In this document: piece after piece, positions 8,205 through 17,655 of the stretch | How the letters are laid out: the number at the start of each line of letters is the position of its first letter | Position numbering within the stretch: the first letter of the stretch is position 1 | Source of the DNA: a virus | Taxonomy: Duplodnaviria; Heunggongvirae; Uroviricota; Caudoviricetes | Length of the DNA stretch: 17,655 nucleotides | IMG/VR virus record: IMGVR_UViG_3300014204_013127 | Reading direction: 5' to 3' (one strand) | Position numbers and translations under genes: made by a program | The notes under the pieces: model-generated | What the model was told of the DNA's origin: nothing | Seen by the model: the letters and a program-made list of their open reading frames with translations, nothing else | Database searches by the model: none

Positions 8205-8503
8205 ATATTGAAACCAGAAAAGAGCCCAAAGAGCCAGAGAATGCCGCTGAGGTTATGGCAAGGGCAGTCGAGTTTGCCAAAAAACGTACCGAATGTTTGG
8301 TGCTGGGCGGCAGCGAAGAAGCTGCATTGGAGGCACAACTTGCGTTGGTATGGGATGAATTTAAAGACACATCCTTGTCCAAAAATATTGGTCTTTTTTT
8401 TCCTGAGCCAATCAAGGATGATGCGACCGATCAACTCAGGCTCTGTCTGTATAAGGCTTATTTGTTGGGGCAACTTTCTGTTATCAAACTCCAAAGGTCA
8501 TGA
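8201..8503 (+). CDS. hypothetical protein
   Basis: 100-aa ORF coupled at both ends. Confidence 0.65.
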   Translation: MNIETRKEPKEPENAAEVMARAVEFAKKRTECLVLGGSEEAALEAQLALVWDEFKDTSLSKNIGLFFPEPIKDDATDQLRLCLYKAYLLGQLSVIKLQRS

Positions 8504-12445: not shown

Positions 12446-12463
12446 TTGATTCTGAAGTATAAT
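12435..12463 (+). promoter_or_regulatory. sigma70-type promoter, leaderless start
   Basis: TTTACA (12435-12440), 17 nt, TATAAT (12458-12463); ATG 6 nt later at 12470. Confidence 0.7.
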
Positions 12464-12469
12464 GGGAAC

Positions 12470-13024
12470 ATGAAACGAACATTATTGATTTTGCTGGCAA
12501 TGTCGATCTGCAATTGTGCGTCTGCTGATATCATTCCTGCTGTCGTTGATTATCAATATCATGGCGAATTGAATGGATCGATGTGGACGTGGACAAAAAT
12601 TACTGATCCTGGTTATGGAATGCCCGAGTGGTTTACAATTCCTTCCAACCAAGATAAGTGGCTTTTTATTCCGAATAACGAACAGTTGGACAGAGTAAAG
12701 CATTTGTGGTTGCAAGTAGAGTGGCAGAGTGATTCCAATGTAGTCGATCCTATTGTGTGGGTGCCTCAAGGATTTACTGTTACGGGTAGTGATTCTGTTC
12801 ATTTTGCTAATACTTATGTCTGGGAGTGGATTATCACACCCCAGTCGGGTGCAGAGATTATTCAATTCCCCAACTCGTTTTCGTGGGCTGGTGTCACTGG
12901 AATTGATGTTGCCACGGATTGTCCCGAACCATCTACTATCGTTCTGCTTGGCATTGGTGCAATTTTCCTAATTTGCAGAAACAAATCATGTGTGAACCGG
13001 CTCCTTCCTGTGGGAGCCGCATAG
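12470..13024 (+). CDS. PEP-CTERM protein-sorting domain surface protein
   Basis: Signal peptide MKRTLLILLAMSICNCASA; C-terminal CPEPSTIVLLGIGAIFLICRNK is PEP motif + TM helix + basic residues. Confidence 0.85.
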   Translation: MKRTLLILLAMSICNCASADIIPAVVDYQYHGELNGSMWTWTKITDPGYGMPEWFTIPSNQDKWLFIPNNEQLDRVKHLWLQVEWQSDSNVVDPIVWVPQGFTVTGSDSVHFANTYVWEWIITPQSGAEIIQFPNSFSWAGVTGIDVATDCPEPSTIVLLGIGAIFLICRNKSCVNRLLPVGAA

Positions 13025-14238: not shown

Positions 14239-14870
14239 TGCCAACCACAATTGACGGTGTTGAATTTGGTCGTGGAGATACCGTTTGGGTTTTACGTGGA
14301 GACTGTGCTGCCATAGATAAGCAGCCAGCAAAAGCAACCGTTGAAATGCTGTTTCCCAGCCCTGACGGCATATGTAGAAAAGGAACTTTGAGGTTTGAGA
14401 ACGAGGAAAGGGAGGATTGGCGACTGAGTGTGTTTAGCACAAAAGAAGCCGCCGAGGCCGCATTGGCAGAAACGATTGTGATGTTGAAGCTGGACAAGGA
14501 CGATGCTCATTTTATTTGGCATCATCTTGCTGAGGGTTTCGCAAAAGTAAAACAAGAGTTGGAGATTTTGCGTATTACGAAAGATCGGGAGTTGACAAAA
14601 CTTGAAAAGTCGATGTTGCCCTCAACGTTGGTAAGATATTCAAGAGAGCAACTGCAAGAACAAATCGACCCGTGGATCAGCTATCTGCAACACTTCATTT
14701 GGTTGATGCGTATGATGAAGGTGGAGGACATTTCCAGAGAACAGGAAATGGTGTGGTGCTATGGAGAAAAGCGGGCACATGAGTTGATGGATGGCTTTGG
14801 GCGGGAATCTTGTTTTGGCAAACGAATTCGTGCTGAGGATGTCAAGCACATTGATGGACCATTGGGATAA
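14238..14870 (+). CDS. hypothetical protein
   Basis: 210-aa ORF with TAATG coupling. Confidence 0.7.
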   Translation: MPTTIDGVEFGRGDTVWVLRGDCAAIDKQPAKATVEMLFPSPDGICRKGTLRFENEEREDWRLSVFSTKEAAEAALAETIVMLKLDKDDAHFIWHHLAEGFAKVKQELEILRITKDRELTKLEKSMLPSTLVRYSREQLQEQIDPWISYLQHFIWLMRMMKVEDISREQEMVWCYGEKRAHELMDGFGRESCFGKRIRAEDVKHIDGPLG

Positions 14871-14876
14871 TTTGTC

Positions 14877-14975
14877 AATTTGTCAATCAACAATATGAGG
14901 GTTTTGCTACGCACGGCACGCCTCTTAACCATGTGCGGATTCTTCGGAATCAGAAGGGTTGTTGATTGACAAATT
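14877..14975. repeat. perfect 17-bp inverted repeat enclosing a 65-nt structured core
   Basis: AATTTGTCAATCAACAA (14877-14893) and its exact reverse complement TTGTTGATTGACAAATT (14959-14975); internal GATTC-TTCG-GAATC hairpin. Confidence 0.85.
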
Positions 14976-15162: not shown

Positions 15163-15235
15163 CGCAGGGGGTAGGTACGGTTATCTTATTTGGCTCATAA
15201 CCAAATGAAAGCGGGATCATCCCCCGCCCCTGCCA
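15163..15235 (+). tRNA. atypical tRNA with CAT anticodon (Met/fMet/Ile2-like, degenerate)
   Basis: 73-nt cloverleaf: acceptor (C)GCAGGG/CCCTGC(C), anticodon arm TTTGG-CTCATAA-CCAAA, T stem GCGGG/CCCGC. T loop is ATCATCC and position 8 is G. Confidence 0.6.
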
Positions 15236-15346: not shown

Positions 15347-15415
15347 ATGTCGAAGCAACAAAAACAACAGAAACAAAAGTGGCAGCATTGCTGCATTACT
15401 GGCGATCTGTTCTGA
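15347..15415 (+). CDS. putative attenuator leader peptide MSKQQKQQKQKWQHCCITGDLF
   Basis: AAGGA at 15333-15337, ATG 15347, nine consecutive Lys/Gln codons, TGA 15413-15415. Below the size cut-off of the ORF track. Confidence 0.7.
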   Translation: MSKQQKQQKQKWQHCCITGDLF

Positions 15416-15501
15416 GTTGCACCGTGGCTCAGGACAAATGCCTGAGCCGGGTTGGTATTGAAAAGCCCCGTTCAGGTAAAAAACTGGACAGGGCTTTTTT
15501 T
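15412..15501 (+). promoter_or_regulatory. transcription attenuator (mutually exclusive hairpins)
   Basis: Segments 15412-15420, 15424-15433, 15441-15452, 15461-15476 and 15484-15498 give alternative pairings 0:1 + 2:3 versus 1:2 + 3:4. Confidence 0.7.
15461..15501 (+). terminator. intrinsic terminator (3:4 hairpin)
   Basis: AAAAGCCC-C-GTTCAG / CTGGAC-A-GGGCTTTT, ending in T7 (15495-15501). Confidence 0.85.
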
Positions 15502-16094: not shown

Positions 16095-16168
16095 CGTGGC
16101 TGACGGGCCGGTTTGCCCTGGAATCCCTGATAAGGATTCCGTGTTGAGTTCGACTCTCAAAGCCACGA
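16095..16168 (+). tRNA. tRNA-Ile (GAT), atypical D arm
   Basis: Perfect acceptor CGTGGCT/AGCCACG, loop CTGATAA, T arm TTGAG-TTCGACT-CTCAA, A73; G at position 8. Confidence 0.8.
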
Positions 16169-16169
16169 C

Positions 16170-17214: not shown

Positions 17215-17337
17215 GCAACTATAGTTTAAGGGGTCGTAATAACTAATTCAATTCTAGAACAAGGGTTGGCAAAAAGCGGCCTAAGGCAAAACGTTCCCGA
17301 CACCGGAGAAATATTGGTTCGATTCCAGTTGGTTGCA
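17215..17337 (+). pseudogene. interrupted tRNA-Val(GAC)-like gene with a 55-nt D-loop insertion
   Basis: Acceptor GCAACTA/TGGTTGC, D stem GTTT/AAAC, T arm ATTGG-TTCGATT-CCAGT, GAC-AC at 17299-17303 in an anticodon arm ~2 nt short; insert bounded by TAAGG direct repeats. Confidence 0.6.
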
Positions 17338-17342
17338 AACAT

Positions 17343-17427
17343 GGGGGTATTGGGGTTGTTGGCAGACCCCGGCAGTCTTTGAAGCTGCATGCGAAAGCAC
17401 TCGGAGGTTCAATTCCTTCTGCCCCTG
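17343..17427 (+). tRNA. type II (long variable arm) tRNA with TTG (Gln) anticodon
   Basis: GGGGGTA/TGCCCCT acceptor, G73, 5-6 bp D stem GGGGT/ACCCC, GCAGT-CTTTGAA-GCTGC, 14-nt V arm with TGC-GAAA-GCA, GGAGG-TTCAATT-CCTTC. Confidence 0.85.
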
Positions 17428-17535
17428 CTAAATGTCCCAAGTTGGCGATACGGTGGCCGATAACCTCGGTGAGGATGGACAGCCTCTAACCTCGGCAGTT
17501 TAAGCTGTGGAACACCGAAATATTTACCAAATTTT

Positions 17536-17607
17536 TGGGCTGTGAGGTAACGGTTAGCCTGACAGACTTTGAATCTGTTCGTGAAGGTTCGAATCCTTCC
17601 AGCCCAG
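17536..17607 (+). tRNA. tRNA-Gln (TTG)
   Basis: Canonical: U1:A72, G73, ACAGA-CTTTGAA-TCTGT; anticodon 17569-17571. Confidence 0.95.
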
Positions 17608-17613
17608 CTATTT

Positions 17614-17655
17614 TGCCCCGTGGTGTAGTGGCCGCACGTCTCGCTCTGAACGAGA
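17614..17655 (+). tRNA. tRNA-Gln (CTG), 5' part only (truncated by window end)
   Basis: TGCCCCG-TG, D stem GTGT/GCAC, TCTCG-CTCTGAA-CGAGA; anticodon 17646-17648. Confidence 0.85.

What the first reader, a model, noticed from the sequence alone, without database searches (positions are those of the whole stretch)
17343..17427. Ser/Sec-like tRNA body carrying a Gln (UUG) anticodon
Seen: 85 nt with a 14-nt variable arm (GAAA tetraloop), a 5-6 bp D stem, G73, G1.U72, a 7/5 acceptor/T fold and loop CT-TTG-AA, identical to the canonical tRNA-Gln 110 nt downstream. Established: bacterial tRNA-Gln has a short V loop; long V arms belong to Ser, Leu, Tyr and Sec; SerRS reads the V arm and ignores the anticodon; bacterial GatCAB favours U1:A72; long D stems typify tRNA-Sec (UCA to UUG is two transitions); allo-tRNAs with mismatched identity are described but have 8/4 or 9/3 folds. 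Inference: either a missense tRNA inserting Ser at Gln codons, which would also relieve stalling on CAA/CAG when tRNA-Gln is lost, or a nuclease-resistant type II tRNA-Gln (G2:C71, G3:C70, G73 and UUG fit GlnRS).
Basis: partly seen in the sequence, partly recalled or inferred. Interest (0 to 1): 0.75.

Follow-up and report, generated by a model that had tools for sequence, protein, structure and literature searches.

The report
Phage glutamine tRNA with tyrosine-type body
A giant phage carries a real, intact tRNA that reads the glutamine codon CAA but has the extra arm normally found only on serine, leucine and tyrosine tRNAs; about 100 other tRNAs, nearly all from phages, share this design, and it most likely still delivers glutamine as a back-up, not serine.

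Summary
Confirmed: an 85-nt 7/5 cloverleaf, anticodon UUG, 14-nt variable arm, on a 340-kb jumbo-phage contig. It is identical in two runs (49-61x; either may be the source) and a further assembly, so it is not a sequencing error.

It is not Sec-like or an allo-tRNA, and its core is Tyr-type, not Ser-type: arm geometry 1/3/3 occurs in 9/36 Tyr and 0/86 Ser; U8-U9; D+T arms score 11 bits better as Tyr.

It belongs to a recurrent family of at least 101 distinct long-arm tRNA-Gln. None has G1:C72 (Ser: 81/86), and 92/101 classify as Gln by acceptor alone. One lies in a Gln tRNA trio directly before a phage glnS gene.

This member meets 8 of 10 E. coli GlnRS determinants. It lies downstream of a Gln/Lys-rich leader peptide and terminator, which suggests a back-up for stalled CAA decoding.

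Best reading: GlnRS-charged class II tRNA-Gln (0.62). Its G1·U72/G2:C71/G73 end leans Gln by only 2.4 bits, so partial serylation stays open. Nuclease evasion is untested and the host is unknown.

The scan already noted this family on other DNA. I found no paper describing it.

The parts
17343..17427 (+). Long-variable-arm tRNA-Gln(UUG); CCA not encoded (C74 only)
   Evidence: read support
17343..17349 (+). Acceptor 5' strand; pairs with 17420-17426 (G1·U72, G2:C71, G3:C70); discriminator G73 at 17427
   Evidence: nearest acceptors with G73 are Gln and Trp types A/U-GGGGUA
17352..17370 (+). D arm: 6-bp stem, 7-nt loop with GG, G10:C25, G11:C24; U8-U9 upstream (Tyr-type)
17372..17388 (+). Anticodon arm GCAGU-CUUUGAA-GCUGC, anticodon UUG at 17379-17381
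   Evidence: same arm in phage tRNA-Gln of L005, L010, L011, L162
17389..17402 (+). 14-nt variable arm: 1 unpaired, 3-bp stem with GAAA loop, 3 unpaired (Tyr geometry)
   Evidence: 9/36 Tyr, 0/86 Ser, 1/71 Leu; same geometry as this phage's tRNA-Tyr
17403..17419 (+). T arm, 5 bp, loop UUCAAUU (same loop as this phage's tRNA-Tyr)
17536..17608 (+). Canonical short-arm tRNA-Gln(UUG), U1:A72, G73
17614..17655 (+). Start of canonical tRNA-Gln(CUG), cut by the window end
   Evidence: complete on contig C200
15118..15145 (+). Sigma-70-like promoter (TTGACA-16-TATACT, 11/12) in front of the array
   Evidence: consensus match only
15347..15415 (+). 22-codon leader ORF with 6 Gln and 4 Lys codons among codons 2-13, plus Trp, His, Cys and Ile codons, matching the tRNAs of the downstream cluster
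15461..15501 (+). Hairpin plus T7 terminator after the leader; candidate attenuator

Best explanation
A functional phage tRNA-Gln built on a class II, tyrosine-type core. Steps: (1) Shown: an intact gene in a Met-Ile-Lys-Gln-Cys-Trp-His array, beside two ordinary tRNA-Gln genes. (2) Inferred: it is transcribed from the 15118 promoter mainly when ribosomes stall on the Gln/Lys-rich leader and the terminator at 15461-15501 is bypassed. (3) Inferred: it is matured by host RNase P and a CCA-adding enzyme; the phage encodes one. (4) Inferred from known identity rules: a direct GlnRS charges it with glutamine. GlnRS reads U35/G36, G2:C71, G3:C70, G10 and G73, needs an easily opened 1-72 pair, and tolerates a long arm. 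SerRS is kept off by the short, Tyr-oriented arm, U72 and G11:C24; TyrRS and LeuRS by G73. (5) Inferred, weakest: its value to the phage is being structurally unlike host tRNA-Gln, so CAA decoding survives host tRNA-cutting or tRNA-modifying defences.
For: At least 101 distinct long-arm tRNA-Gln (92 UUG, 9 CUG; 80 clusters at 80% identity). First pair U-A 74, A-U 17, G·U 2, G-C 0, as in short-arm Gln (U-A 57, A-U 7, G·U 2, G-C 0 of 71) and unlike Ser (G-C 81/86). An acceptor-only classifier puts 92/101 in Gln. Their arms pair better than 200 shuffles (score 8.9 against a maximum of 6.8). Long-arm Asn, Cys, Pro, His and Thr tRNAs likewise keep their own discriminator bases. In L278 a long-arm Gln(UUG) heads three Gln genes directly before a glnS gene (TIGR00440 585 bits, cut-off 426). 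The target meets 8 of 10 E. coli Gln elements listed in PMC1483225. An amber tRNA-Ser became a Gln acceptor by changing pairs 1-72 and 3-70, so GlnRS accepts a long arm (PMC9976931). A Tyr body needs arm insertions plus changes at 9 and 73 to be serylated (PMC11122139); the target has only G73. CAA is 26 per 1000 phage codons, and CAA columns align to Gln 28% and Ser 4.5% in homologues of two phage proteins. Leader with 6 Gln codons. Phage tRNAs that resist host nucleases are known (PMC11464382; PMC12445682).
Against: No charging or expression data. This member is atypical: G1·U72 occurs in 2/101, and the acceptor margin of Gln over Ser is only 2.4 bits (1.1 bits on pairs 1-3 plus 73). It shares G1, G2:C71 and G73 with Ser. 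U15/C48 is not a usual Levitt pair. G1·U72 fails the U1-A72 rule of amidotransferases, so the model needs a GlnRS host. The host is unknown and the phage has no full GlnRS. No nuclease specific for tRNA-Gln that the arm would block was identified.
Confidence: 0.62

Rival explanations
1. Ambiguous or missense tRNA: SerRS charges it, wholly or in competition with GlnRS, and Ser enters at CAA/CAG codons, keeping ribosomes moving when Gln-tRNA is lost.
For: Long arm, G1, G2:C71 and G73 are Ser features; one review also lists G3-C70. The acceptor margin is small. Nematode nev-tRNAs show that long-arm tRNAs can decode a foreign codon (PMC4033280), and allo-tRNAs insert Ser or Ala.
Against: Arm geometry occurs in 0/86 Ser; a 3-bp stem in only 8/83. 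U72 and G11:C24 replace C72 and C11:G24, and U9 occurs in 2/86 Ser. The family never has G1:C72. CAA is the phage's main Gln codon and shows no Ser signal; this excludes reassignment but not low-level misreading.
Confidence: 0.17
2. Not used in translation: a decoy for an anticodon nuclease or toxin, or an uncharged or decaying gene in an array that also holds remnants.
For: Redundant with a canonical UUG gene. Odd core (U15/C48, extended D stem). The neighbours 17215-17337 and 17428-17535 look irregular. No RNA run is available.
Against: All stems are intact. A syntenic copy differs at only 3 of 85 positions while the upstream array differs at 29 of 467 (low depth). The design recurs in 80 sequence clusters, and in most fetched loci (64/92) no short UUG gene was seen.
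Confidence: 0.13
3. Charged by a private or indirect route: one of the two phage-encoded minimal GluRS/GluQ-like proteins, or a non-discriminating GluRS without amidation, giving Glu at Gln codons.
For: Contig C200 encodes two ~240-aa PF00749 proteins with HLGH and KMSKS-like motifs. G1·U72 is common in Glu tRNAs (25/59) and blocks GatCAB.
Against: These proteins lack an anticodon-binding domain and lie about 73 and 177 kb away, beside unrelated ORFs. Only 3 of 23 long-arm-Gln phage records carry any PF00749 gene (1 of 12 near-complete). The acceptor scores 6.7 bits worse as Glu.
Confidence: 0.06
4. A tRNA-Sec or tRNA-Ser whose anticodon recently mutated, or a sequencing error.
For: 6-bp D stem and G73; UCA to UUG is two transitions.
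Against: Zero differences in deep runs. 7/5 fold, 7-nt D loop, 14-nt arm, tRNA-Sec below 30.2 bits. Identity to the phage's own Ser tRNAs is 42-49%, and the best matches are long-arm Gln at 61-66%.
Confidence: 0.02

Closest known systems
Canonical bacterial and phage tRNA-Gln(UUG), class I; E. coli GlnRS identity set
   Same: UUG, A37, G10:C25, G2:C71, G3:C70, G73 and a weak first pair; loop identical to the neighbouring canonical gene
   Different: 14-nt variable arm, G1·U72 instead of U1:A72, A38 instead of U38 (shared with the neighbour), Tyr-type D arm
Bacterial tRNA-Tyr (class II)
   Same: U8-U9, arm geometry 1/3/3, D and T arms score best as Tyr; T loop same as this phage's tRNA-Tyr
   Different: Anticodon UUG not GUA, G73 not A73, G1·U72 not G1:C72
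Engineered Gln-accepting class II tRNAs: amber tRNA-Ser with changed 1-72 and 3-70 pairs (cited in PMC9976931); from memory, not retrieved: E. coli su3 tRNA-Tyr mischarging mutants at positions 1, 72, 73 and the class II tRNA-Gln of Nissan, Oliphant and Perona 1999
   Same: Long-arm body with Gln acceptor marks
   Different: Natural, sense anticodon, phage-borne, widespread
Nematode nev-tRNAs (PMC4033280)
   Same: Long variable arm with a class I anticodon
   Different: nev-tRNAs keep Leu identity and mistranslate; this family carries the acceptor of its own anticodon; phage rather than eukaryote
allo-tRNAs and tRNA-Sec (PMC5389517, PMC7609411)
   Same: Long arm, G73, extended D stem
   Different: 7/5 fold rather than 8/4, 9/3 or 8/5; 7-nt D loop with GG rather than a tetraloop; short arm
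Nuclease-resistant phage tRNAs: T5 tRNA-Lys against PARIS (PMC11464382), phage tRNA-Thr against P2-OLD (PMC12445682)
   Same: Phage-encoded variant isoacceptor that could replace a host tRNA
   Different: Known cases use anticodon stem-loop substitutions, not an added arm; resistance not tested here

Membership tests
tRNA-Gln (GlnRS route) | Anticodon Y34-U35-G36 and A37 | tested here: met
   set from PMC1483225
tRNA-Gln (GlnRS route) | G2:C71, G3:C70, G10, G73 | tested here: met
tRNA-Gln (GlnRS route) | U1:A72 and U38 | tested here: not met
   G1·U72 (weak pair, also in 2/71 short-arm Gln) and A38 (as in the canonical neighbour)
tRNA-Gln (GlnRS route) | Short variable loop (class I) | tested here: not met
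   14 nt
tRNA-Gln (GlnRS route) | Charged with glutamine | not testable with these tools
   needs an aminoacylation assay
tRNA-Gln (GatCAB route) | U1:A72 for the amidotransferase | tested here: not met
   G1·U72; rule in PMC9976931
Bacterial tRNA-Ser | G1:C72 | tested here: not met
   G1·U72; G-C in 81/86 Ser
Bacterial tRNA-Ser | G2:C71 and G73 | tested here: met
   both are also Gln elements
Bacterial tRNA-Ser | Ser-type arm length and orientation; C11:G24 | tested here: not met
   geometry 1/3/3 in 0/86 Ser; G11:C24
Bacterial tRNA-Ser | Serylation by SerRS | not testable with these tools
   needs an assay
Bacterial tRNA-Tyr | Tyr-type core (U9, 3-bp arm, 3 unpaired 3' bases) | tested here: met
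   the Tyr reference set is small (36) and its leave-one-out recall is 22/36
Bacterial tRNA-Tyr | GUA anticodon, A73, G1:C72 | tested here: not met
   A73 in 36/36 Tyr
tRNA-Sec | 8/5 acceptor/T fold and UCA anticodon | tested here: not met
   7/5 and UUG; register fixed by N73-C-U ends
tRNA-Sec | Rfam RF01852 at or above 47 bits | tested here: not met
   below the 30.2-bit tRNA match; not listed (150 of 796 candidates scored), where the bin's real Sec scores 67.8
tRNA-Sec | 6-bp D stem with 4-nt loop | tested here: not met
   6 bp but a 7-nt loop with GG; long D stems in 9 tRNAs of this phage
allo-tRNA | 8/4 or 9/3 acceptor branch | tested here: not met
   U17350 faces C17419, so no eighth pair; definition in PMC5389517
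nev-tRNA-like missense tRNA | Body keeps the identity set of the class II donor | tested here: not met
   Tyr determinants A73, GUA and C72 are lost; family acceptors follow Gln
Nuclease-evading phage tRNA | Resists a host tRNase that cuts the host isoacceptor | not testable with these tools
   host and nuclease unknown

The most novel reading that the evidence does not exclude
A natural dual-identity tRNA: a Tyr-shaped body that GlnRS charges normally but SerRS can also charge (G1, G2:C71, G73), switched on by a Gln-codon-sensing attenuator, so that the phage accepts Ser at CAA codons to keep translating when host defences remove Gln-tRNA.
Probability: 0.15. Interest if true: 0.85.

Novelty: new variant of a known kind. 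Interest (0 to 1): 0.5.

Why it matters
The textbook rule is that long variable arms in bacteria belong to Ser, Leu, Tyr and Sec tRNAs only (PMC4033280). Phages break it often: at least 101 distinct tRNA-Gln, plus Asn, Cys, Pro, Ile and His examples, which keep the acceptor marks of their own anticodon. If they are charged correctly, the arm is a freely exchangeable chassis. That would give a new, testable way for phage tRNAs to differ from host targets of tRNA-cutting defences, and natural scaffolds for tRNA engineering. This member is the most informative test case, because it sits on the GlnRS/SerRS boundary that was earlier explored only with engineered suppressors. If it were serylated, it would be a natural regulated missense tRNA.

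Tried and rejected
Sequencing error: rejected. Sec or allo-tRNA: rejected. CAA reassigned to Ser: no sign, but only two genes were tested. The phage uses the standard code (TAG is used as a stop).

Private synthetase as a family trait: not supported (3/23 records). No class II synthetase on C200, and no GlnRS anticodon domain or GatB on C200.

No RNA holder listed; this is no evidence on expression.

GenBank phages: no close homologue of the target, and family members hit mostly Leu, Asn or Tyr tRNAs.

Syntenic relatives through flanking proteins: only the same strain was found.

Host: unresolved. The bin G001 is a GC-rich bacterium with GlnRS, GluRS and GatB, while the contig is 40% GC, so binning is not evidence of host. 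Homologues of the GluQ-like genes in Planctomicrobium and Schlesneria are only a hint.

GTDB scan: 5 true long-arm Gln genes, all on 4 MAG contigs with tRNA arrays and none from isolates. The pattern was narrow, so absence from chromosomes is not shown.

Literature: four searches found no description of phage long-arm tRNA-Gln. The primary papers of Nissan 1999, Himeno 1990, Rogers and Soll 1988, Sampson and Saks 1993, and Soma and Himeno 1998 are not held. The su3 and Nissan precedents therefore rest on memory.

Rows are related sequences, not independent events.

Full report
Observation. The feature is as described. Window 17343-17427 folds as a 7/5 cloverleaf with G1·U72, G2:C71, G3:C70, G73, a 6-bp D stem, loop CU-UUG-AA and a 14-nt variable arm. 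Two deep DNA runs from different years and habitats carry it with no difference, although either may be the window's source. A further assembly has it exactly. A pond contig has a syntenic copy with 3 differences at positions I could not see.

Setting. The window lies on a 340-kb, 40% GC contig binned with a GC-rich bacterium. It has jumbo-phage content: DNA ligase, sigma factor, tmRNA, a CCA-adding enzyme and about 70 tRNA genes. The host is unknown. The gene sits in a cluster Met-Met-Ile-Lys-Lys-Lys-Gln-Gln-Gln-Cys-Trp-Trp-His, beside canonical Gln(UUG) and Gln(CUG) genes. The phage already has six Ser tRNA calls and one Tyr. It also has long-arm Asn(GUU) and Ile(UAU) genes and eight short-arm Leu genes, so arm length is uncoupled from anticodon across this genome. 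Upstream lie a sigma-70-like promoter, a 22-codon leader with six Gln and four Lys codons in positions 2-13, and a hairpin-T7 terminator. An earlier scan note pointed me to the leader. I checked the ORF and hairpin but not the switching.

What the body is. It is not Sec: wrong fold, anticodon, D loop and arm length, and the Rfam Sec score is below 30.2 bits against 47. Long D stems occur in nine tRNAs of this phage, so that feature is not diagnostic. It is not an allo-tRNA, since no eighth acceptor pair exists. Against 1,277 tRNAs parsed from the fetched loci, the D and T arms score best as Tyr (-31.2 bits; Ser -42.6, long-arm Gln -43.6). The arm geometry of one unpaired base, three pairs and three unpaired bases occurs in 9/36 Tyr, 1/71 Leu and 0/86 Ser, and in the phage's own Tyr. 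U9 is seen in 18/36 Tyr and 2/86 Ser. The Tyr determinants A73, GUA and C72 are gone. Whether the body descends from a Tyr gene or converged on it is not shown: identity to the phage's Tyr is only 51%, and the Tyr reference set is small.

The family. Pattern scans of viral, metagenome and genome collections gave 101 distinct long-arm tRNA-Gln, 92 UUG and 9 CUG, in 80 clusters at 80% identity. Nearly all come from viral contigs; the five GTDB hits lie in tRNA arrays on MAG contigs. Their arms pair better than shuffles. Their first pair is U-A 74, A-U 17, G·U 2 and never G-C, as in short-arm Gln and unlike Ser (G-C 81/86). By acceptor alone, 92/101 classify as Gln. Their cores vary between Gln-, Leu-, Tyr- and Ser-like, which suggests repeated origins (inference). 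Long-arm Asn, Cys, Pro, His and Thr tRNAs also keep their own discriminator bases. In one record a long-arm Gln gene heads three Gln genes directly before a full glnS. The target's best whole-sequence matches are family members at 61-66%.

Which amino acid. The target meets 8 of the 10 E. coli Gln elements in PMC1483225. The misses are A38, shared with its canonical neighbour, and G1·U72 in place of U1:A72. From my own knowledge, GlnRS opens the 1-72 pair, and su3 tRNA-Tyr mutants with U72 or G73 insert Gln; I could not retrieve those papers. GlnRS accepts a long arm: an amber tRNA-Ser became a Gln acceptor through pairs 1-72 and 3-70 (PMC9976931). A Tyr body needs arm insertions and changes at 9 and 73 to become a Ser acceptor (PMC11122139), and the target has only G73. 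CAA is the phage's main Gln codon and aligns to Gln, not Ser, in homologues. The caution is real: this member is among the most Ser-like of its family, with an acceptor margin of 2.4 bits. G1·U72 also rules out the GatCAB route, so a GlnRS host is required and is not identified.

Why the arm. This step is inference. Phage isoacceptors that escape host tRNases are established. A structurally different copy beside a canonical one, behind a Gln-codon sensor, fits a back-up role. No nuclease that the arm blocks is known, and neutral reuse of class II bodies would explain the family equally well. A private phage synthetase is unlikely as a general explanation.

Novelty. I found no paper on long-arm tRNA-Gln in phages; the library lacks most subscription papers. 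The nearest published cases are nev-tRNAs, allo-tRNAs and engineered suppressors. The scan's own notes report the same family on other genomes; these are not independent evidence.

Verdict: a real feature and a new variant of a known kind. Gln-charged 0.62, Ser or mixed 0.17, not translating 0.13. Interest 0.5.

Noticed in passing
window 17215-17337: tRNA-like gene with a ~55-nt structured insert in the D loop between TAAGG repeats and a defective anticodon arm around GAC; Rfam tRNA 33.5 bits; variant copies in two other runs.
   Followed up: partly
window 17428-17535: Structured spacer between the two Gln(UUG) genes, with several hairpins; possibly a tRNA remnant; no convincing Rfam match.
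   Followed up: partly
window 15347-15501: Gln/Lys-rich leader ORF followed by a hairpin-T7 terminator; its codons match the anticodons of the downstream cluster.
   Followed up: partly
window 14870-14957: Long, almost perfect hairpin (about 24-bp outer stem) just before the promoter region of the tRNA array.
   Followed up: no
window 8441-8445: The window has 4 more bases than contig C200 of G001 here; otherwise the two are identical.
   Followed up: no
G001:C200 (reverse strand 308002-308091 and 326772-326864): Long-arm tRNA-Asn(GUU) and tRNA-Ile(UAU); the Asn arm begins and ends like the arm of the long-arm Gln in L005. Also eight short-arm tRNA-Leu genes.
   Followed up: partly
L150:1036-1773 and L152:1414-2130: Two phage paralogues of a ~240-aa GluRS/GluQ-like catalytic domain without an anticodon-binding part, each beside ~340-360-aa ORFs of no known family; 76 homologues, including Planctomicrobium and Schlesneria.
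   Followed up: partly
L278:910-2733: IMG/VR record with three different tRNA-Gln(UUG) genes, one long-armed, directly followed by a complete glnS gene.
   Followed up: yes
window 16095-16169 and 15164-15234: tRNA-Ile(GAU) with an unusual D arm, and tRNA-Met(CAU) with a non-standard T loop (31.9 bits).
   Followed up: no
window 12446-13024: ORF with a weak PEP-CTERM match (21.9 bits, cut-off 20.7) in a phage.
   Followed up: no
L033, L042, L046, L047, L054, L062, L086, L090, L108, L112, L113, L141: Recurrent irregular tRNA-like genes in 36-60 kb (pro)phages that ARAGORN calls Lys(UUU), with a poorly paired anticodon stem and a 19-20 nt extra region.
   Followed up: no
G001:C200 contig ends: One end is a hexamer tandem repeat; no terminal repeat was seen.
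   Followed up: no
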